Origin: Naegleria gruberi
Lineage: Eukaryota
DNA: 64,000 bases
Reading direction: 5' to 3' (one strand)
Assembly (NCBI GenBank): GCA_000004985.1
Contig: GG738860.1
The notes beneath the pieces are model-generated. The model searched no databases. It was not told the DNA's origin and saw only the letters and a list, made by a program, of their open reading frames with translations. Shown one piece after another: positions 41,968-64,000 of this stretch. The position numbers were made by a program, and so were the translations under genes. The stretch's first letter is position 1; the number at the start of each line of letters is the position of its first letter.

Positions 41968-43029
41968 TTACAATAATTTCAAATGTTTTGTAACAGTATC
42001 AATTAATTCTACAGGAGCTGGACCAATTCCAAGTACTGTTTTCGATCCAGCTTCAATTTGAGTTCTTCCAGCATCAACAACAAGATAACAATTCAAACGT
42101 TGTTGTAAACATTTTTGAAATAAATTATCCAATTCCTTATCACTATCTGCTTTAAGACAAATCTTAGCTTCAGCTGTTACTTCCCAGTCATGTAAATATT
42201 GTTTCCATTGTTGCATATCTTGGTTGGTGATTTGTGTTGGCTCTGAATTTGATGATGAAAATAATAATTGAGTTTGAGCAAAATAGGAGGTGTTTTCATA
42301 GAGAATATTTCTATAGAGACCGACAGCTGCATGACAACATTGAGCAGCAATCTTTCCTTTACCCATATTCAAATCATTTCTAACAACAAATACCATCTTG
42401 TAAGCCTTTGATGTCGGGAATGATTTCATCAAATATTCTTGATATTTTTGATNNNNNNNNNNNNNNNNNNNNNNNNNNNNNNNNNNNNNNNNNNNNNNNN
42501 NNNNNNNNNNNNNNNNNNNNNNNNNNNNNNNNNNNNNNNNNNNNNNNNNNNNNNNNNNNNNNNNNNNNNNNNNNNNNNNNNNNNNNNNNNNNNNNNNNNN
42601 NNNNNNNNNNNNNNNNNNNNNNNNNNNNNNNNNNNNNNNNNNNNNNNNNNNNNNNNNNNNNNNNNNNNNNNNNNNNNNNNNNNNNNNNNNNNNNNNNNNN
42701 NNNNNNNNNNNNNNNNNNNNNNNNNNNNNNNNNNNNNNNNNNNNNNNNNNNNNNNNNNNNNNNNNNNNNNNNNNNNNNNNNNNNNNNNNNNNNNNNNNNN
42801 NNNNNNNNNNNNNNNNNNNNNNNNNNNNNNNNNNNNNNNNNNNNNNNNNNNNNNNNNNNNNNNNNNNNNNNNNNNNNNNNNNNNNNNNNNNNNNNNNNNN
42901 NNNNNNNNNNNNNNNNNNNNNNNNNNNNNNNNNNNNNNNNNNNTGTGTTCTTGTGATGACATTTTTTAATGAGTTGGAATTATTTTGAAAATAATCACAT
43001 GAGGAATAAATTGCAGAATTGAACATCAA
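41968..43029 (-). CDS. PTH2: Peptidyl-tRNA hydrolase 2 (PTH2). The 5' part of the gene is interrupted by the 490-N assembly gap (42454-42943), so the N-terminus and the start are unreliable
   Basis: The C-terminal catalytic domain is KMVFVVRNDLNMGKGKIAAQCCHAAVG...CYLVVDAGRTQIEAGSKTVLGIGPAPVELIDTVTKHLKLL, a PTH2 signature. Confidence 0.8.
   Translation of the reverse strand: MMFNSAIYSSCDYFQNNSNSLKNVITRTXXXXXXXXXXXXXXXXXXXXXXXXXXXXXXXXXXXXXXXXXXXXXXXXXXXXXXXXXXXXXXXXXXXXXXXXXXXXXXXXXXXXXXXXXXXXXXXXXXXXXXXXXXXXXXXXXXXXXXXXXXXXXXXXXXXXXXXXXXXXXXXXXXXXXXXXXXXXXXXXXXXXXQKYQEYLMKSFPTSKAYKMVFVVRNDLNMGKGKIAAQCCHAAVGLYRNILYENTSYFAQTQLLFSSSNSEPTQITNQDMQQWKQYLHDWEVTAEAKICLKADSDKELDNLFQKCLQQRLNCYLVVDAGRTQIEAGSKTVLGIGPAPVELIDTVTKHLKLL
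42454..42943. other. Assembly gap (490 N) inside the PTH2 gene. The poly-X ORFs in this region are artefacts
   Basis: Run of N in the sequence. Confidence 1.
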
Positions 43030-43290
43030 TCTCGAGCCAATAAATTCACAAACAATTAAGAACTCTCCAATTAGACTTTAGATAGTTAAGGGATTGTTGA
43101 CGGAAGAGAATTTCATGTTTTATAGTTAGTATTTATAGAAATTAATAACAATAATAATTTGTACTTCACAACAGGAAAGTTGAAGAAACAATAATTTTCA
43201 AGTGGAAACTTTACAATTTCTTTCATCAAGAGGATTATCCAATCAATCAATTATTGAAATAAAAAAAAATTCAAATCACCCAGATCTTCT

Positions 43291-45741
43291 TTGAACATGG
43301 CCAGAACCAAGCAAACAGCGAGAAAATCGACGGGTGGCAAAGCTCCAAGAAAACAATTGGCTTACAAAGCTAGAAAAGCAAACAGACCTTTCCCTTCCCG
43401 TTCGTTGGCAGGTCCTTTTTCTGATGAGGAAAAAGCAATTTTTGTGAATGGTTTGAAAAGAGCCTTCGATGGAAGTGAAGAATCATCAAAATTTGATGTA
43501 AATACCTATGAAGGAGCTTCACAATTAGTCAAATTTTGGATTTTCCAAGATCAAAAAAGAAGAAAATTGAAACCAATGGTAGAGGAAGCTAAATGGAATG
43601 GCAGCTTTGAATTGCTTCACAATCTTCCTATGGATATCAAGTATGAAATTATTGATTTTATTCCAACCTTTTCCTTGAGAGATTTTTACAAAATCAAGTT
43701 AGACGAATTCACTGAACAGATGAAGCTGGCACAAGTTGAAGATATTTCTAAAATTGTATGCAAAGGACTGAATTTGTTTGAAACCTTTACAAAGAGATCT
43801 TTTCAAAATTTGTACTATTCAGATCCTCTCTATAGAAACTATTACAAGAAGAGACTAATTAACAGAGAATATGCATTAAGAATGAAACAAAGGATATTGA
43901 AGTTGGATGAGTTTGATATTACAGATATTGATTATGATATTGGTTCTGTAAAGAAAGACAAACTATTGCACTTCTTTTCGTTGGTTAAGGAGATGAATGA
44001 AATTGACACTGTTGACTTTAATGATGTGGTCATTCACAGAAATATTGAAAAAATCAAGTCATTGGTAAATGGAACCACCACAAAAAGAAATGAAGATGAT
44101 TACGAGTCACCTTGTGAAGAACCAATGGATGATACTGATTCAATTAGTAATGAGCCTAATGTAACTGTATCATTTGATGAAATGGAGCTACTTTCTGAGG
44201 AAGAAATGAAAAAGTTAGAATCAAAATCTATTGCCATACTGCAGGAATCAGAAAGAGGATATTATAATACTCGTAATTACAATAAGTTTAACAAGCAAGA
44301 TAGTAAATCTTTTAGAAAGCAAGCGATGTATTCGTATGCTATACCATTGGAACTAATAGGAACTGGTGCTATTCCACAAGAACAAAATTTTACTCGTGCC
44401 TTTTCTCACGAAGAGATTATGGAAAGGCTTAAGGAGTTTATTGGAATTAATTCATCCATTAAGAAACTTTCTGTCAGAGGTCTAGATGTCGGCTTTACAA
44501 ACACTGCCATGGACATCTGTAAAGGAATAACAGATCTTTCAATACTTTTATGTGAGTACGTGGATTATTTTGAGTGCTTTAAAGAAGTCCTACCAAATCT
44601 CAACAAGCTGACTATTAATGGAGTTTCTTCTCATTACTCAATTAGTTTTATGGAAAGCTTTATGATTGAGGAATATATTCAACCTAACTGTGTTGTTGAT
44701 TTAGGGTTTGCTACAGGCACTGACACATATTTCTCGGATTTTTTAAATCGTTATGTTGAAGATCAAAACGGTAACAAGACTCCATTGAAAATTACCTCAA
44801 AACTACTCTCAACTGAAAACGTAACCGAATATGCCGACTTTTTATTGAGGTTTATAGAAGGAGTATCTTTCGGCCAATTGTTTTCTGATTTTGATATGAA
44901 AAAGAAATTGGTAGATTACTTGGTAATTGAAGTTGGCATTCCAATTGAATGGCTTACGCTTACCACAAGTGGAGATACTATAATTACAGAATACTTAGCT
45001 TATCTTTCAAATGTTTATCAAAATGGGGCAATTAATTGTCCAAGCTCTATTATGTTACGAGCAGGCTTGATTCCAAATAATATAGCCAATGAATTGGTTT
45101 TTTCTAAATATGAATGGGATGTTGTTGAGTTATGTTTAGATTATTTAAAAAAGAGAGATGATATTGATGACTTTGTTTTGACCCTTAGAAATTTGCTCGT
45201 TTTCTATGTGTGTGATAGAAGTGATTCTCCACTCTTTGAACTATATTGTTACATTAAGAAGAATATTCCAGAAAGTCAATTCAAAGAAATTTTAAAGCCT
45301 ATCAAATGTATCATTCCAGAAGGCTACAAAGAAAAGAACAATGAAACCTTGCATACAGTTTCTATTCCCATCATTTGCTTCCCATTCTCAAATTACCAAT
45401 TCGCTAAAGCTATCGTGGATGATATGACAGACGAAGATTTGAAATTTGTTAATGAGCTTGGTGACTCATGTCTGCACATTTATTCTAGACATGACCATAG
45501 TATTTGGAGTAGAATAGTTGAAAGAGTACCAGAGGTAGTCAAACTCAGCAACCCTGAGGGAGTAACACCTTTACATATTCATACTACCAATATCCAGTCA
45601 TACATATTTGTATTAGACTTGTTGACAAGATTTGGTGCTGACCCAAATGCAAAAGATATTGAAGGAAGAAAAGCTATTGGTGAATTTTTTATATTTGAGA
45701 ATGGTATTTTGAAAGTTAACAACAGATCAATGGAATATTAG
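43291..45741 (+). CDS. F-box-like / ankyrin-repeat protein (816 aa) whose N-terminus mimics the histone H3 tail
   Basis: Residues 3-29 are [27 protein letters not shown], against H3 [28 protein letters not shown]. The F-box-like motif is [21 protein letters not shown]. The C-terminal ankyrin repeats include ...[11 protein letters not shown]...[20 protein letters not shown]. It is a single uninterrupted ORF. Confidence 0.75.
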   Translation: [816 protein letters not shown]

Positions 45742-59286: not shown

Positions 59287-60600
59287 TTAAAAGGTTTTTG
59301 GAGTTAATTCTTCATCATCTTCCTCAGCACTTGCTTTCTTCTTCTTTTTCTTGGAGGCTTTCTTCTTTTTGGTGCTTGTAGATGCTGGGGGTTGAATAGC
59401 AAGAGAAGACCATTCATCACCTTGCACTTCTACAGTTTCGTGAAGTTGCTCTTGAGGTGATGTTGGAGAATCTGTAGGTGCTACAACAGGTGTTGTTATG
59501 TCTGTAGTGATGATGGCTTCACTTTCAGTGGTTATTGATTGTTCTTCTGTTGTTGTTGGAAGGGTTGGAACACTATCTGTTGGATCCATACTTGGTGCTT
59601 CTTGTTGCTCTGGAATTGTTGTGGATGTTAATAATTCATTTGTTGTGCATTGAATAGTTGGAGATGATTCCTCTGTTTTAGCTTCTTCTTGTGGAGTGAC
59701 AGGTTGTTGTGTTTCTTCTTCTTCTTGAATTGCTACTGGTTGTTCTGCTTCTACTTGTTGTTTTGGTTCATCCAGGATGAGTGGAGTAGAATTGGCCACT
59801 GTCAGAATGGTATTGTTCTTACCACTGACACTTCCATTATTACTTGATTGTCCACTCTTATTAGAGACATTGGCAACACTAGCAGTGGTACTCTTATTTG
59901 AAGCAGTGGCAACTTGTGCTTCGGAAGTTGTTGATTTTGATGAAGAAATGGCAGCTACTGTTGAATCTGTTACATTTGAAGGAGGATTTGATGTTGGTTG
60001 TACTGGGGAGGAAACAGCTGGAGTTGTTGCAGTGTGGAGTGATGAAATTGGTTGTTGAGGTTGTGTGGTAATGTTTGAAGGACGTGGTTGTTTTCTTGCT
60101 CCTTGTTGTTGAGTGTTTAGTTGTTGTACAAGTGGCACACTCACAAAATGGTTTTTCAATATCCGAATACTGTCTGAGAATATCCAAGGTGTGTTTGTGT
60201 TTATAGATTTACAGGCTAAGATCGCATAGTCGGCATCATAGATCTTTTCATTTACTTTCTTTGTTTTTAACATGTTCTGTTATTGTACAATAATATTTCC
60301 AATATTTTAATATAATATATAATTATTATTATAAAATAGATTATTGTTCAATAAAAGATTAATCCACAACAAACTTCCTACCTTTTGTTCAACCATCATT
60401 GGTACCTTTGTTCTTACGTGCTCCACAATTCTATACATTCCTACACTCGGTTCATTCATGATGTGATGAATATTCGAACTCCAAATATCACATAAATTTA
60501 AAACTGATTGTTTGGTATCAAGATCAAGAAAACGATCCGTAGAATCAGCAAGGGTTGGCACTGATCCCTTGTAGATTTCTCCTCTTGGTTGTCCTCTCAT
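59287..60600 (-). CDS. Hypothetical protein with a small N-terminal domain and a long Ser/Thr/Pro/Gln-rich disordered tail ending in a K-rich acidic segment, 2 exons (60382-60600, 59287-60279)
   Basis: Exon 1 (MRGQPRGEIYKGSVPTLADSTDRFLDLDTKQSVLNLCDIW...MMVEQK) joins through a GTAGGA...aacag intron, in phase, to NMLKTKKVNEKIYDADYAILACKSINTNTPW.... No family recognised. Confidence 0.4.
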
Positions 60601-60699: not shown

Positions 60700-63399
60700 T
60701 TACAAGATAACACAACCACCTCCTCCACCTCCACTGCTACTGGGTCTTGGGATGTTATTAATTTGAGTTCGGAGGTCTTGATTTTGTCTGGTTAGTTCAT
60801 CGAATTTTCTTTGAAATAATTCCTCCTGATTAGAATATTTGGAATGTATTTGAGCAACTTGGGAAGAGTATTCTTTCTTAATTTCTGTTTCTTTTTTGTC
60901 CCATTCCAATTTGAAATGGTTGAGGTCTTGTTCATGAGCTTGTTGCTGCTCTATTAAGGTATGTAAATGTTTTTCATTTTGCAGTTTCATATCTTCTAGT
61001 TCTTGTAAACGAGTAAGTTGTTCTGATTCGAGTTTGGTAATTTCAAGCCTTTGTTGTTCTTGTTCTAACATTTGTATTACCTTTTCGGATTCGTAATCCT
61101 GTAATTTGGATAAATAGTTAGCACATTCGACAGTTAAATTCTCAATATCTTGCAAAAGGTAAGTTCTAACTTGCTCTCTACCTGGACCTTTGCATTGAGC
61201 TTCGAATTGTTTCATTTGTCTTTCAGCCTCTTTCTCTAAATCTTGAACTGTGGCATCGTGGGTTAAAGCTCTAATAAAGAGTGATATATTTTGTTTCATT
61301 TCGGATCGTACTTGCTCGCACAACCTAACAGATTTGTCCATATTGTTACTTTCTATTTGGGATCTCTCTTTTTTAATTAATTCAAACAACTTGTCAGAAT
61401 ATTCTCTCAATATCTTTTCATCTTTTTCAAACATGGAGTCTCTGTTGAATATGTCAAGAATTGTTGCCCATGTTTTTGTGTGTTGTTTACGGATTTCACA
61501 AATTTCATAAATACTGTTACTGTTCAAATGTTTCTTCATTTCCCTTTCGTATAAATTTACACATTTTTCAATTGTCTTATTGTAGGTATTTTCAATTACC
61601 ATTGTAAATTTGTCCTCAATATTAGGAATCATTCCATGTGTTTTAATGGTTTTCAAATATAATAATATTAAAGTAACATAGCGAGTTCCATCTAATAAAC
61701 CTCCATTCATATTTTGTTTTGGTTTAATATTGGATGGAACGAAACTGTTAACAAAAGTAGACATTTCCTTAATGAAGTTAGCATTCAGTAAATGTTCTAC
61801 GTATGGAATATCAGGAACACAACCTGTAGCAGGTGCTTCCATATGATATGTATCAAAAGTTTCAAAAGATTCAATTACTTTTTTTCTTGAATCATTGTTG
61901 CAAACCTTATTCAAAATAAAGGAGGTAAGAGTCTTAAATTCAGCTGGTATATTCAATTTGAAATCTCTGAACAACCAAATACATCTTGGTTTCATATAAC
62001 TATTGCACTCCGTATTGTTTTGATTGGATGATTTCAATTGAATGTTTTGAGTGAATCTGGTGGTAATTTCAAGTGTCTCCATACTACTTGCTGTAGGACA
62101 AGTTGTGGTATTATAAATAAACAGAGATGATAGTAATACACTTAGAATCATAATGTGATTATCATCAGAAGCGTTAGCAGATGCTGCATCAACACCTTCA
62201 GTGTCTATCAATAAAACTTTCAATTTCTGATTGCCGTAGACCATTTCAATTGGCTCTGACCATATCCAAATTCCAAATGTTTTAGCTTCTACTGTGTGTC
62301 CTAAATGAAAGCTATCTGCAGGAACATTATCACCAACTAATCTACTAAGAGAGTATGATTTACCTTCCCTTGTTCTTCCAGCAAGTACAATTGCTCCAAT
62401 AGGCTCCTTGATATTTTTGATTATGTCAAGAGCTTGTTTCTGGAAGATTAAACCCTCTCTACGTCCGTTCTCTGATAACAGAATGTATTGACCATTGGGA
62501 GTGACCACCATATTTTTAGGAAGTAAGAGAGGAATTGCTTTACCGTGGAGTTTAACAACTTGAAAAGCAGGGTTTTGGGATGAGTTGTCTCCAGCAAATA
62601 CTAAAAGACCCCAATCGCCAAAATAATCCACGTTAACAACAATATTGTTTTCCATACAGAGGTAAATACTTTGATTTGTTGTAATATTTTCTCCAACATG
62701 ACATTGTCCATAAATGGTAAAGGTAGCATAATTTTTTTGATAATAGCCATTCTCAACTTCAAATCTATTAACATTTGGTGAAAGTACTAACTTTCTATGG
62801 ACTCTTGAAGAATAGATAAATACTGTATCTCCAGATTTAACAATACCATCTTTTGATTGATCATTAGCATTTACAAAATACAGTAGATCGTTTTCAGCAG
62901 AAAAGTGAGGGAGAGCTACTAATACATTTTGCTCCTTCAATCCCACATATAGATTGGTATTTGAGTTCATGATGGCTACTGGCTCTTTGTAAAATAAATT
63001 AGTATCTTTACACTTTTCAACAAATGGATCAAATATGCTATCTGAAACTAAATCAGGGTCTGCTTCCATTTCTTTAAGAATATCCTTTGAAGAGTTTGGT
63101 ACTTTGGAATCATTATCTATGGGTTGATCAAAGTCCATGTCAAGATAACTGAATGATTCGGCCAAATCTTCGAGACTATCATTAATAGCTTTTCTTTCTG
63201 AAGTATGAATGAAAGTGTAATATTCAATGGCGTCTTCAAGATGACCCATGCTATTTTGGATGGCTTCAAACACTAAATTCAAATCCGACAAATCCATTTC
63301 TATCATTCTCCAGAATGTTGAGGTGGCTAAATCGCAAGCTTCTTTTCCATACTCCTCAAAGTGTTTCTCGATTTTATCCAATACTGTGTGGTGATCCAT
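60700..63399 (-). CDS. Guanylate-binding-protein (GBP)-like dynamin-superfamily large GTPase with a ~330-aa N-terminal extension, a helical/coiled-coil C-terminus and a C-terminal CaaX box (CVIL)
   Basis: The G1 motif is LAGRTREGKSYSLSRL (GBP: GxYRTGKSYLMN). G3 is KVLLIDTEGV. The G4/RD motif is IWLFRDFKL. A long helical domain follows, ending ...PRPSSSGGGGGGCVIL*. Confidence 0.75.
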   Translation of the reverse strand: MDHHTVLDKIEKHFEEYGKEACDLATSTFWRMIEMDLSDLNLVFEAIQNSMGHLEDAIEYYTFIHTSERKAINDSLEDLAESFSYLDMDFDQPIDNDSKVPNSSKDILKEMEADPDLVSDSIFDPFVEKCKDTNLFYKEPVAIMNSNTNLYVGLKEQNVLVALPHFSAENDLLYFVNANDQSKDGIVKSGDTVFIYSSRVHRKLVLSPNVNRFEVENGYYQKNYATFTIYGQCHVGENITTNQSIYLCMENNIVVNVDYFGDWGLLVFAGDNSSQNPAFQVVKLHGKAIPLLLPKNMVVTPNGQYILLSENGRREGLIFQKQALDIIKNIKEPIGAIVLAGRTREGKSYSLSRLVGDNVPADSFHLGHTVEAKTFGIWIWSEPIEMVYGNQKLKVLLIDTEGVDAASANASDDNHIMILSVLLSSLFIYNTTTCPTASSMETLEITTRFTQNIQLKSSNQNNTECNSYMKPRCIWLFRDFKLNIPAEFKTLTSFILNKVCNNDSRKKVIESFETFDTYHMEAPATGCVPDIPYVEHLLNANFIKEMSTFVNSFVPSNIKPKQNMNGGLLDGTRYVTLILLYLKTIKTHGMIPNIEDKFTMVIENTYNKTIEKCVNLYEREMKKHLNSNSIYEICEIRKQHTKTWATILDIFNRDSMFEKDEKILREYSDKLFELIKKERSQIESNNMDKSVRLCEQVRSEMKQNISLFIRALTHDATVQDLEKEAERQMKQFEAQCKGPGREQVRTYLLQDIENLTVECANYLSKLQDYESEKVIQMLEQEQQRLEITKLESEQLTRLQELEDMKLQNEKHLHTLIEQQQAHEQDLNHFKLEWDKKETEIKKEYSSQVAQIHSKYSNQEELFQRKFDELTRQNQDLRTQINNIPRPSSSGGGGGGCVIL

Positions 63400-63625
63400 C
63401 TAAATAGTTTTTTGTTGTTGGGTTGAAAAATTCTAAATTGTTTTCTCTTTTAAATTGCAAGCACCATCCGTTTTAATCAACAAAACGTGATTGTAGACTC
63501 AAATAAGTAACACTCATCACGTTTTACTAAACGAACAATACAACAGGGCGATCACGTTTCAGCATTTTTTAATATTTTTATTATTTTCAATTTTAAATTA
63601 AATGTGTTTAAATAATTATATTTAT

Positions 63626-64000
63626 TTACAAAATATTACAAAAACCAGATGATCTATTATTCATATTTGCAAGACTACTGGTTAGATTAGAAATTTGTCT
63701 TGAACTATCAGCAGATTGTTGTTGTAAAACATTAATCATTTGAGTCATTCTTTGTTCGGATTGAGCTTGCTGTTGAGTAAACATTTGATTCATATTTTGG
63801 AGATTTTCCTTATGTTCAAAGAGGAGTCTTTCTTGGAGTTCTTGCATTTTCTTCTTTTCATCATTTGATGCAGCAAGCATTTCTTTTTGGAATTCTTTGA
63901 TTTTGTCCATTGTTTCCTTGTATAATTCTTCTTTGGCTTTTTCAGATTGTTCGAGGTTTTCTAATTGCTGTCTGACTTTTGCAGTTTCTTGTTGGATGGC
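63626..64000 (-). CDS. Coiled-coil protein ending in a CaaX box (CNIL), 3' end only. The ORF continues beyond the window edge. Possibly the C-terminal part of a second GBP-like gene
   Basis: The frame stays open upstream to position 64000 (…AIQQETAKVRQQLENLEQSEKAKEELYKETMDKIKEFQKEM…). The terminus is ...RSSGFCNIL*, in the same orientation and style as the adjacent GBP-like gene. Confidence 0.5.
   Translation of the reverse strand, partial: AIQQETAKVRQQLENLEQSEKAKEELYKETMDKIKEFQKEMLAASNDEKKKMQELQERLLFEHKENLQNMNQMFTQQQAQSEQRMTQMINVLQQQSADSSRQISNLTSSLANMNNRSSGFCNIL

What the first reader, a model, noticed from the sequence alone, without database searches (positions are those of the whole stretch)
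60700..64000. GBP-like large GTPase with a novel N-terminal extension and a CaaX box, next to a second CaaX-ended coiled-coil gene (possible tandem pair)
The 60700-63399 gene has the GBP-type G1 (GRTREGKSYSL), G3 (LLIDTEG) and RD (LFRDF) motifs and a long helical C-terminal domain. It ends in GGGGGGCVIL, a geranylgeranylation CaaX box exactly as in vertebrate GBP1/2/5. About 330 residues of unrecognised sequence precede the GTPase domain. Immediately upstream, in the same orientation, the partial gene at 63626-64000 also ends in a coiled coil plus CaaX (CNIL). Prenylated GBPs are cell-autonomous immunity effectors in animals. A tandem prenylated GBP-like pair in a fungus-like genome would be notable.
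Basis: partly seen in the sequence, partly recalled or inferred. Interest (0 to 1): 0.65.

Follow-up and report, generated by a model that had tools for sequence, protein, structure and literature searches.

The report
Prenyl-tailed GBP GTPase pair in Naegleria
This is a real guanylate-binding-protein (GBP) type large GTPase gene of the amoeba Naegleria gruberi (not a fungus), with a lipid-anchor signal at its end, a lineage-specific front module of unknown fold, and a probable GBP paralog just upstream; it is an interesting variant of a family already known to occur in protists.

Summary
**Observation: confirmed.**
- 60700-63399(-) is one uninterrupted 899-codon ORF.
- It carries Pfam GBP (E 9.5e-32) and GBP_C (8e-10).
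- Its best solved relatives are human GBP1/2/5 (E~1e-30). Atlastin scores only 1e-5.
- It ends in GGGGGGCVIL.

**Organism.** The protein is 100% identical to Naegleria gruberi XP_002678885 (NAEGRDRAFT_65980, "predicted protein"). The "fungus-like" reading is wrong.

**Orthologs.** An uncultured relative and Willaertia magna each have a collinear ortholog (904 and 933 aa). Both keep the N-terminal extension and a CaaX box (CTIQ, CILM).

**Upstream gene.** The partial gene 63626-64000(-) ends in CNIL. It aligns end to end with the C-terminus of a GBP+GBP_C protein in the relative's cluster (52 bits; shuffled maximum 27). It is therefore very probably a second, "type B" GBP. Its GTPase domain lies beyond the window and could not be read.

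**Lineage context.** Types A, B and C form a heterolobosean clade (bootstrap 94). A and B lie within 7 kb of each other in all three species.

**N-terminal extension.** It is about 285 aa, not 330. It has no Pfam or PDB match and no homolog among 1.84 billion representatives. It consists of a confident helical bundle and a beta-rich domain whose fold is unresolved; beta-trefoil is only a lead.

**Verdict.** GBPs and GBP clusters in protists are already known. This is a new variant of a known kind, of moderate interest.

The parts
60700..63399 (-). Complete single-exon CDS of the 'type A' heterolobosean GBP. It is 899 aa plus the stop codon and equals N. gruberi XP_002678885.1 / D2VAU4 / NAEGRDRAFT_65980.
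   Evidence: ORF. 100% identity over 100% coverage to P0001; accessions. Collinear orthologs of 904 aa (33% identity, E 1e-177) and 933 aa.
63145..63399 (-). N-terminal helical bundle, aa 1-85. Helices at 3-17, 19-34, 40-50 and 54-84.
   Evidence: AF2 model m62d6cb028a2b has pLDDT 79-92 for aa 1-60. The region is conserved in both orthologs. No Pfam or PDB sequence match. The UBA-like appearance (W. magna 'LRMMGY...GDINLCIEFL') is a visual lead only and was not tested.
63016..63144 (-). Acidic, low-confidence linker, aa 86-128.
   Evidence: pLDDT below 35. Length varies and alignment is poor between orthologs.
62542..63015 (-). Beta-rich domain of unresolved fold, aa 129-286, lineage-restricted.
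61630..62541 (-). GBP large-GTPase (LG) domain, aa 287-590.
   Evidence: Pfam PF02263, E 9.5e-32, aa 317-493. Aligned to human GBP1 residues 18-313.
62356..62379 (-). G1/P-loop GRTREGKS. R344 aligns with the GBP1 arginine finger R48.
   Evidence: R344, G346, K347 and S348 are invariant in the three orthologs.
62275..62292 (-). Switch I, VEAKTF. T374 aligns with GBP1 T75. A372 takes the place of GBP1 S73.
   Evidence: Alignment. A372 and T374 are invariant in type A. Types B and C have S or T at that position (sequences).
62194..62205 (-). G3 motif DTEG.
   Evidence: invariant in the orthologs.
61963..61971 (-). G4 motif FRD, the GBP-type (T/A)(L/V)RD that replaces NKxD.
   Evidence: F477, R478 and D479 are invariant.
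60760..61629 (-). GBP C-terminal helical domain, aa 591-880.
   Evidence: Pfam PF02841, E 8.3e-10, aa 568-860. The phmmer alignment to full-length human GBP1 runs to aa 880, matching GBP1 residue 583.
60700..60759 (-). Flexible tail NNIPRPSSSGGGGGG, then the CaaX box CVIL (60703-60714), then the stop codon.
   Evidence: P884, R885, G890, G891, G894 and C896 are invariant in the orthologs, which end in CTIQ and CILM.
63400..63625 (.). 226-bp AT-rich spacer (GC 0.25) between the stop of the upstream gene and the ATG of the 899-aa gene.
63626..64000 (-). The 3' end (last 124 codons plus stop) of the upstream same-strand gene. It is a coiled-coil-like Q/E/K-rich tail ending in CaaX CNIL (63629-63640). 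Probable 'type B' GBP paralog.
   Evidence: The frame is open to the window edge. BLASTP to the last 120 aa of L001 gene 3 (868 aa, GBP+GBP_C, ends CIIL) gives 52.4 bits and E 5e-13. The maximum of 200 shuffles was 27.3 bits. W. magna P0063 has the same kind of tail.

Best explanation
**What it is (shown).** The 899-aa gene is a guanylate-binding protein of Naegleria gruberi. Residues 287-899 form a complete GBP1-like core:
- an LG GTPase domain with the in-cis arginine finger, DTEG and the RD guanine-specificity motif;
- the GBP helical domain;
- a glycine linker and a CaaX box.

**How it probably works (inferred from the family).**
- The cysteine of CVIL is prenylated. Because X is Leu, the lipid is most likely geranylgeranyl.
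- GTP binding drives LG-domain dimerisation and higher-order assembly.
- The lipid tail anchors the assemblies on a target membrane.

**The extra module (shown to exist, role inferred).** A lineage-specific module of about 285 aa precedes the core. It is a confident helical bundle followed by a beta-rich domain. I take it to be a targeting or regulatory add-on.

**Genomic context (shown, except the GTPase domain of the upstream gene).**
- The gene sits 226 bp downstream of a second CaaX-ended gene that is almost certainly a 'type B' GBP.
- Types A and B, and a third type C that has a hydrophobic tail and no CaaX, arose by duplication within Heterolobosea.
- A and B have stayed linked in three species.

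**Most likely biological role (inferred, not shown).** Membrane-directed, cell-autonomous action on phagosomes or pathogen vacuoles of a bacterivorous amoeba, analogous to animal GBP1/2/5 and to the Dictyostelium GBP.
For: **Family assignment**
- Pfam GBP E 9.5e-32 and GBP_C E 8.3e-10.
- PDB GBP1/2/5 E~1e-30, aligned over aa 311-880; atlastin scores about 2e-5.
- Catalytic and specificity motifs are present and invariant in the orthologs.

**CaaX**
- Present in 3 of 3 type A proteins (CVIL, CTIQ, CILM) and in 3 of 3 type B proteins (CNIL, CIIL, CTIL), although the flanking sequence is poorly conserved.
- 10 of 65 retrieved GBP homologs have Cys at position -4, against a 1% overall Cys frequency. 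They include Phytophthora palmivora (CVIQ).
- A protein farnesyltransferase gene exists in N. fowleri (PMC7560193).

**Paralogy and linkage**
- The fragment matches the type B C-terminus with 52.4 bits; shuffled sequences reached at most 27.3.
- In an NJ tree the A+B+C clade has bootstrap 94, A has 100 and B+C has 100.
- A and B lie 226 bp apart here, about 2.5 kb apart in L001 and about 7 kb apart in W. magna L003.

**N-terminal module is real**
- It is a continuous ORF in three species.
- It is 27% identical between the N. gruberi protein and the metagenome ortholog.
- AF2 gives pLDDT 79-92 for aa 1-60.

**Functional precedent**
- The Dictyostelium GBP is described as antimicrobial and involved in Legionella growth (PMC12040241).
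- W. magna eliminates Legionella, and Naegleria species host Legionella (abstracts listed).
Against: - There are no expression, localisation, GTPase or prenylation data for this protein or for any heterolobosean GBP.
- A372 replaces the Ser73 that, from my own knowledge, positions the catalytic water in human GBP1. Hydrolysis may therefore be slower or work differently in type A.
- The X residue of the CaaX box differs among orthologs (L, Q, M), so the type of lipid is not conserved.
- There is no polybasic patch next to the CaaX like the one in GBP1.
- The GTPase domain of the upstream gene was not seen. No annotated protein contains its C-terminal 124 aa.
- The fragment's match to W. magna B alone is not significant (21.6 bits).
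- The fold and function of the N-terminal module are unresolved.
- An immune role is by analogy only. GBP relatives also have housekeeping membrane roles.
Confidence: 0.8

Rival explanations
1. It is a housekeeping membrane-remodelling GTPase. The prenylated GBP paralogs would act in ordinary endomembrane, phagosome or contractile-vacuole dynamics, in an atlastin- or dynamin-like way, with no specific role in defence.
For: GBPs are the closest relatives of atlastins (weak atlastin hits). The Dictyostelium GBP is found on macropinosomes and was proposed to have tethering or trafficking functions (PMC8565484). Nothing in the sequence is specifically 'immune'.
Against: The family shows a lineage-specific three-way expansion with accretion of new terminal modules (Q/N-rich, helical plus beta, hydrophobic tail), clustering, and only about 30-35% identity between orthologs. 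That pattern fits a fast-evolving accessory family better than a core trafficking factor, but this is indirect. The Dictyostelium GBP does affect Legionella infection.
Confidence: 0.3
2. The upstream fragment is an unrelated CaaX-ended coiled-coil protein, so there is no tandem GBP pair in this genome.
For: Only 124 residues of low-complexity, Q/E/K-rich sequence are visible. There was no database hit with the fragment. No significant similarity to the type A C-terminus. The match to W. magna B alone is not significant.
Against: The match to the GBP+GBP_C protein of L001 runs end to end, including the SS(L/I)(A/S)NM...C-a-a-L tail. It scores 52.4 bits (E 5e-13), far above the 200 composition-matched shuffles (maximum 27.3). 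That gene type lies next to type A in two other species.
Confidence: 0.08
3. The terminal Cys-x-x-x is not a functional prenylation signal and the protein is soluble. The similarity to CaaX would be incidental, or the cysteine would serve another purpose.
For: No experimental data exist. X differs between orthologs (L, Q, M). GGTase-I was not verified in Naegleria here.
Against: Cys is at exactly position -4, followed by two aliphatic residues, in 6 of 6 type A and B proteins. It sits after a variable Gly-rich linker. Such tails are enriched among GBPs generally (10 of 65 against 1% Cys). Type C has lost the CaaX and instead carries a hydrophobic tail, as expected if a membrane anchor is the selected property.
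Confidence: 0.1

Closest known systems
Vertebrate CaaX-bearing GBPs (human GBP1 CTIS, GBP2 CNIL, GBP5 CVLL)
   Same: The whole core architecture matches: LG domain, helical domain and terminal CaaX. Residues 287-899 (613 aa) align along essentially all of GBP1 (592 aa). The arginine finger, the DTEG motif and the RD motif are all present. The upstream gene even ends in the same four residues as human GBP2, CNIL (the GBP2 tail is from my own knowledge).
   Different: - Only about 25-28% identity, in a separate clade.
- An extra N-terminal module of about 285 aa.
- A Gly6 linker in place of the polybasic patch.
- Ala at the Ser73-equivalent position.
- No interferon system in this organism.
- Prenylation and function are untested.
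Dictyostelium discoideum GBP (Gnbp, DDB_G0281639)
   Same: It is an amoebal GBP-family GTPase that is membrane-anchored and implicated in the interaction with Legionella (PMC12040241, PMC8565484).
   Different: DdGBP is a single gene. [quoted passage not shown] It resembles heterolobosean type C rather than types A and B. No sequence comparison with it was run here.
Heterolobosean GBP types B and C (L001 genes 3 and 2; W. magna P0063 and P0064)
   Same: They belong to the same lineage-specific clade (bootstrap 94). They share the conserved K(A/S)IPLLL first strand. They are chromosomally linked to type A. Type B also ends in a CaaX box.
   Different: Type B has a Q/N-rich low-complexity N-terminus instead of the helical plus beta module. 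Type C has no GBP_C hit and no CaaX, but has a hydrophobic C-terminal segment.
Atlastin / Sey1 (RHD3) GTPases
   Same: They belong to the same GB1/RHD3-type G-domain superfamily. The weak matches cover only the G1-G3 region (aa 355-450, E about 2e-5).
   Different: The scores are 25 orders of magnitude weaker than for GBPs. There are no transmembrane hairpins and no three-helix-bundle middle domain. The GBP_C helical domain is present instead.

Membership tests
Guanylate-binding protein (GBP) family, dynamin superfamily | GBP-type large GTPase domain (Pfam PF02263) above the curated cut-off | tested here: met
   110.6 bits against a cut-off of 21.1, E 9.5e-32, aa 317-493.
Guanylate-binding protein (GBP) family, dynamin superfamily | GBP C-terminal helical domain (Pfam PF02841) | tested here: met
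   39 bits against a cut-off of 24.3, E 8.3e-10, aa 568-860. The alignment to full-length GBP1 runs to aa 880.
Guanylate-binding protein (GBP) family, dynamin superfamily | P-loop GxxRxGKS with the internal arginine finger (GBP1 R48) | tested here: met
   GRTREGKS; R344 aligns with R48 and is invariant in three orthologs.
Guanylate-binding protein (GBP) family, dynamin superfamily | G3 DxxG as DTEG, and the unusual G4 (T/A)(L/V)RD in place of NKxD | tested here: met
   DTEG at aa 399-402 and FRD at aa 477-479, aligned to GBP1 DTEG and TLRD.
Guanylate-binding protein (GBP) family, dynamin superfamily | Closer to GBPs than to the sister atlastin/Sey1 family | tested here: met
   GBP1/2/5 chains score E 5e-31 to 1e-21; the best atlastin chain scores 2.2e-5 over 95 residues.
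Guanylate-binding protein (GBP) family, dynamin superfamily | Switch I catalytic Ser (GBP1 S73) and Thr (T75) | tested here: inconclusive
   T374 is conserved. The S73-equivalent residue is Ala372 in all three type A orthologs. The role of S73 is from my own knowledge. It is a catalytic detail, not a criterion for family membership.
Guanylate-binding protein (GBP) family, dynamin superfamily | Nucleotide-dependent dimerisation and cooperative hydrolysis of GTP to GDP or GMP | not testable with these tools
   Needs purified protein.
Prenylated (CaaX) GBP subgroup | C-terminal Cys-aliphatic-aliphatic-X motif | tested here: met
   CVIL here, and CTIQ and CILM in the orthologs. The neighbouring gene ends in CNIL, and its group in CIIL and CTIL.
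Prenylated (CaaX) GBP subgroup | Actual isoprenylation and prenyl-dependent membrane binding | not testable with these tools
   There is only indirect support: an FTase gene is reported in N. fowleri (PMC7560193). GGTase-I in Naegleria was not checked.
Prenylated (CaaX) GBP subgroup | Common descent with the vertebrate CaaX GBPs, as opposed to convergent gain of the motif | tested here: inconclusive
   The heterolobosean and animal GBPs form separate clades. CaaX tails also occur in an oomycete GBP and in environmental GBPs. The tree cannot separate an ancestral motif from repeated gains.
Tandem GBP gene cluster | The adjacent gene carries a GBP GTPase domain | tested here: inconclusive
   Only the last 124 codons lie in the window. 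They match the C-terminus of a GBP+GBP_C protein (E 5e-13; shuffles reach at most 27 bits against 52 observed). DNA beyond base 64000 could not be obtained.
Beta-trefoil domains (MIR, fascin, FGF, ricin-B type) - considered for aa 129-286 | Three-fold repeat of four strands forming a trefoil, with a significant structural or profile match | tested here: inconclusive
UBA-like helical domains - considered for aa 1-60 | Three-helix bundle with an MGF/Y loop and a significant profile or fold match | not tested
   This is a visual resemblance only (W. magna 'LRMMGYLMDDSDLFPIVASASGDINLCIEFL'). There was no Pfam UBA hit at E<=10 and no PDB hit. No fold search of the isolated bundle was possible.

The most novel reading that the evidence does not exclude
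The type A heterolobosean GBP could be a self-contained sensor and effector. In this reading, its private N-terminal module (a UBA-like helical bundle plus a beta-trefoil-like, possibly lectin- or lipid-binding domain) directly recognises marked or damaged pathogen-containing vacuoles. It would do in cis what ubiquitin and galectin adaptors do in trans for mammalian GBPs. The prenyl anchor would be an ancient, possibly ancestral, eukaryotic feature of GBPs rather than a vertebrate innovation, given the CaaX tails seen in Discoba, oomycete and other protist GBPs.
Probability: 0.12. Interest if true: 0.75.

Novelty: new variant of a known kind. Interest (0 to 1): 0.42.

Why it matters
Prenylated GBPs are central effectors of cell-autonomous immunity in mammals. 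The only amoebal GBP studied so far, that of Dictyostelium, is anchored by a transmembrane segment and lacks a CaaX box.

This locus shows that a distant eukaryotic lineage (Discoba) has GBP1-like, CaaX-ended GBPs. They have duplicated, stayed linked and acquired new end modules. That gives three things:
- A data point that lipid-anchored GBPs are much older or more widespread than vertebrates.
- A natural experiment in how targeting modules are bolted onto the GBP engine.
- Candidate defence genes in amoebae that host, or in the case of Willaertia kill, Legionella.

All of this is hypothesis-generating. The family, its presence in protists and its clustering are already known.

Tried and rejected
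**Extending past base 64000 failed.**
- The exact protein is not in the gene-position index.
- The 124-aa fragment found no protein.
- A search with the metagenome type B protein returned no N. gruberi protein. The word-indexed search also missed P0001, so absence from it is weak evidence.

**Other GBP copies in the window.** tblastn found none in 1-60700.

**Searches with the N-terminal extension found nothing usable.**
- A profile against 1.84e9 representatives found only itself, a 103-aa fragment of the metagenome ortholog, and two spurious repeat proteins (P0067, P0068), which I rejected on inspection.
- Pfam at E<=10 gave only a sub-threshold MksE hit.
- PDB profile searches with the whole beta domain, the helical bundle and a stacked nine-repeat profile gave nothing meaningful.
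- A metagenome scan with the N-terminal alignment found no relative.
- A scan with the full-length alignment found three intron-bearing GBP loci (L005-L007) that lack the extension. I did not pursue them.

**Structure prediction was inconclusive.**
- Two AF2 runs, limited to two-sequence alignments, gave pLDDT of about 43-45.
- The afdb50 library was unavailable.

**Rejected readings.**
- Atlastin/Sey1 membership was considered and rejected.
- The 'fungus-like genome' reading was rejected.

**Literature.** No paper mentions this gene's accessions or GBPs in Naegleria, Willaertia or Heterolobosea.


Full report
**1. What is in the sequence**

Coordinates 60700-63399 on the minus strand hold one ORF of 899 codons with no stop. 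I re-derived their coordinates:
- GRTREGKS at 62356-62379.
- DTEG at 62194-62205.
- FRD at 61963-61971.
- The tail NNIPRPSSSGGGGGGCVIL*, with CVIL at 60703-60714.

Upstream on the same strand, after a 226-bp spacer with GC 0.25, a frame stays open from the window edge at 64000 down to a stop at 63626-63628. It ends in ...NMNNRSSGFCNIL.

**2. Family**

- Pfam gives GBP (PF02263, E 9.5e-32, aa 317-493) and GBP_C (PF02841, E 8.3e-10, aa 568-860). Both are above their curated cut-offs.
- Against PDB sequences the best hits are human GBP1, GBP2 and GBP5 (E 5e-31 to 1e-21). The alignments run from aa 311 to aa 880 and cover GBP1 residues 18-583.
- Atlastins reach only about 2e-5, over 95 residues around G1-G3. 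The refutation condition 'atlastin/Sey1 rather than GBP' is not met.
- In the GBP1 alignment, R344 matches the arginine finger R48, K347 and S348 match K51 and S52, T374 matches T75, DTEG matches DTEG, and FRD matches the TLRD guanine-specificity motif.
- The one notable departure is Ala372 where GBP1 has Ser73. This Ala is invariant in the three type A orthologs. Types B and C keep Ser or Thr there.
- Residues 287-899 (613 aa) are a complete GBP1-sized core. The true extension is therefore about 285 aa, not about 330. The first GBP strand, KAIPLLLP, is shared with all related GBPs.

**3. Organism and annotation**

The protein is 100% identical over its full length to 'predicted protein [Naegleria gruberi]'. 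Its accessions are XP_002678885.1, EFC46141.1, UniProt D2VAU4 and NAEGRDRAFT_65980, on a 536,960-bp scaffold. The genome is that of a heterolobosean amoeboflagellate, not a fungus. No paper in the searchable library mentions these accessions.

**4. Relatives and the gene cluster**

The closest homolog is P0002 (904 aa, 33% identity, 99% coverage, BLASTP E 1e-177). It comes from a 10-kb metagenome contig, L001, and is also seen on the JGI contig L002. That contig carries three GBP genes:
- Gene 1, type A: it has the N-terminal extension and ends in CTIQ.
- Gene 2, type C: 715 aa, GBP domain only, with a hydrophobic C-terminal segment and no CaaX.
- Gene 3, type B: 868 aa, with a Q/N-rich N-terminus, GBP plus GBP_C, ending in CIIL.

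Willaertia magna has the same three types:
- A 933-aa type A gene at L003:353-3154(-). It has GBP E 1.5e-42 and GBP_C E 3.7e-13 and ends in GGGGGRRGCILM.
- The type B protein P0063 (821 aa, ending in GGFCTIL), about 7 kb from the type A gene.
- The type C protein P0064 (771 aa) on another contig.

A BLAST matrix gives these identities:

| Comparison | Identity |
|---|---|
| Within type A orthologs | 31-36% |
| Within type B | 34-35% |
| Within type C | 30% |
| A against B or C | 22-33% (HSP lengths not shown) |

In an NJ tree of the LG domain (291 columns, 100 bootstraps):
- The A+B+C clade has support 94, the A clade 100 and the B+C clade 100.
- Animal, plant/algal and other protist GBPs fall outside this clade.
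- A divergent N. fowleri GBP (P0065) also falls outside.

This is therefore a heterolobosean expansion that predates the Naegleria-Willaertia split.

**5. The upstream fragment**

- Its 124 residues align end to end with the last 120 residues of L001 gene 3, right up to the CaaX. The match has 32% identity, 67% positives, 52.4 bits and E 5e-13.
- Two hundred shuffles of the fragment scored at most 27.3 bits against the same protein set (mean 20.2, sd 1.8).
- The match to W. magna B also runs end to end, but it is not significant alone (21.6 bits).
- The fragment shows no detectable similarity to type A.

I conclude that the upstream gene is very probably the N. gruberi type B GBP. Its GTPase domain was not seen, and I could not obtain DNA beyond base 64000.

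**6. The CaaX boxes**

- Cys at position -4 followed by two aliphatic residues is found in 6 of 6 type A and B proteins. It sits behind a variable Gly-rich linker.
- Among the 65 GBP homologs retrieved, 10 have Cys at -4, against a 1.06% overall Cys content. They include Phytophthora palmivora (CVIQ) and an environmental family ending in FC(S/I/N)IF.
- By the usual rules (my own knowledge), X = L directs geranylgeranylation, which applies to CVIL and to all three type B tails. X = Q or M directs farnesylation, which applies to the two type A orthologs.
- Type C lacks the CaaX and instead carries a hydrophobic tail. That fits a picture in which membrane anchoring is the conserved requirement.
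- A farnesyltransferase gene is reported for N. fowleri (PMC7560193). GGTase-I was not checked. Actual modification is untested.

**7. The N-terminal extension**

It is part of the same ORF in three species and 27% identical between the two closest of them. Sequence searches gave nothing:
- A two-sequence profile searched against 1.84 billion cluster representatives found only itself, a 103-aa fragment of the metagenome ortholog, and two repeat proteins that are clearly spurious.
- Pfam at E<=10 and PDB profile searches gave nothing.

- AF2 gave a confident helical bundle for aa 1-60 (pLDDT 79-92).
- The isolated domain reached pLDDT 42.8 and pTM 0.45.

Tests of the fold were mixed:
- hhalign self-comparison shows a 52-residue offset repeat, P 0.005.
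- Foldseek lists from both models are dominated by beta-trefoil proteins: FGF1, IL-37, clostridial neurotoxin Hc and NTNH, RyR and IP3R N-termini, SDF2-like MIR, the CSL beta-trefoil domain and Symfoil. None is significant (E>=0.04, TM about 0.25).

The fold is therefore unresolved. 'Beta-trefoil-like' is a lead at roughly even odds. The UBA-like look of the helical bundle is an untested visual impression.

**8. Mechanism**

*Shown:* the family, the motifs, the domain order, the conserved CaaX, and the paralogy and linkage.

*Inferred from the GBP family:*
- GTP-dependent LG dimerisation with the in-cis arginine finger.
- Prenylation of Cys896.
- Assembly on a target membrane.

*Further inferred:* the N-terminal module targets or regulates the protein, and the biological role is cell-autonomous action on phagosomes or pathogen vacuoles. 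The precedents are:
- Mammalian GBP1/2/5.
- The Dictyostelium GBP, which is transmembrane-anchored, lacks a CaaX, is found on Legionella vacuoles, and is described as antimicrobial (PMC12040241 and PMC8565484).
- The ecology of Naegleria and Willaertia with Legionella.

A housekeeping membrane-remodelling role cannot be excluded.

**9. Comparison with what is known, and novelty**

The JEM review states that GBPs arose early in eukaryotes. It reports bona fide orthologues in protists, amoebae, plants and algae, and notes typical expansion into chromosomally clustered families (PMC6400534). A GBP cluster in a protist is therefore not new in kind.

I did not find the following described in the searchable literature:
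- CaaX-ended GBPs outside animals.
- The heterolobosean A/B/C subfamilies.
- The type A N-terminal module, which has no detectable homolog anywhere else.

I rate this a new variant of a known kind, with moderate interest (0.42).

Noticed in passing
window 59287-60600 (-): Immediately downstream of the GBP gene lies a BORCS8 (BLOC-one-related complex subunit 8) homolog. It appears to be split by a short intron. ORF 60307-60600 hits Pfam BORCS8 positions 2-49 (E 2.7e-13). ORF 59287-60273 hits positions 55-107 weakly (E 0.0047) and continues into a long S/T/Q/P-rich tail.
   Followed up: partly
L001 3196-5343 (-); W. magna P0064: There is a third heterolobosean GBP type ('C', 715-771 aa). It has no GBP_C Pfam hit and no CaaX box. 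It has a conserved hydrophobic C-terminal segment (...TLLTCG(V/A)(S/Q)A...SP.L...P(I/V)(L/V)G(Q/K)F...) that looks like a tail anchor. This is reminiscent of the transmembrane-anchored Dictyostelium GBP.
   Followed up: partly
P0049 (Phytophthora palmivora); P0057-P0060 (environmental): CaaX-like C-termini also occur in an oomycete GBP (GGEECVIQ) and in a family of AT-rich environmental GBPs ending in CGCE(L/I)G(E/Q/D)FC(S/I/N)IF. Lipid-anchored GBPs may therefore be widespread among protists.
   Followed up: partly
L001 8494-10074 (+): The metagenome GBP cluster is flanked by a gene with VWA, Vwaint and Vint/Hint (Hedgehog-type intein-like) domains. Vwaint scores E 4.7e-23.
   Followed up: no
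L004 10001-12240 (N. fowleri P0065): N. fowleri has a divergent 726-aa GBP with the GBP domain only. It carries an acidic insertion and a C-terminal S/G/K-rich tail and has no CaaX box. It falls outside the A/B/C clade. Whether N. fowleri has types A and B at all was not determined.
   Followed up: no
window 42001-44000: There is a pronounced low-GC stretch (GC 0.242, against about 0.34 for the rest of the window).
   Followed up: no
L005-L007 (WLWD01006260.1, WLWD01002919.1): An intron-bearing eukaryote in the metagenome collection carries several near-identical GBP gene copies on long contigs, two of them on the same 179-kb contig. This is another clustered GBP family. They have no N-terminal extension.
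   Followed up: no
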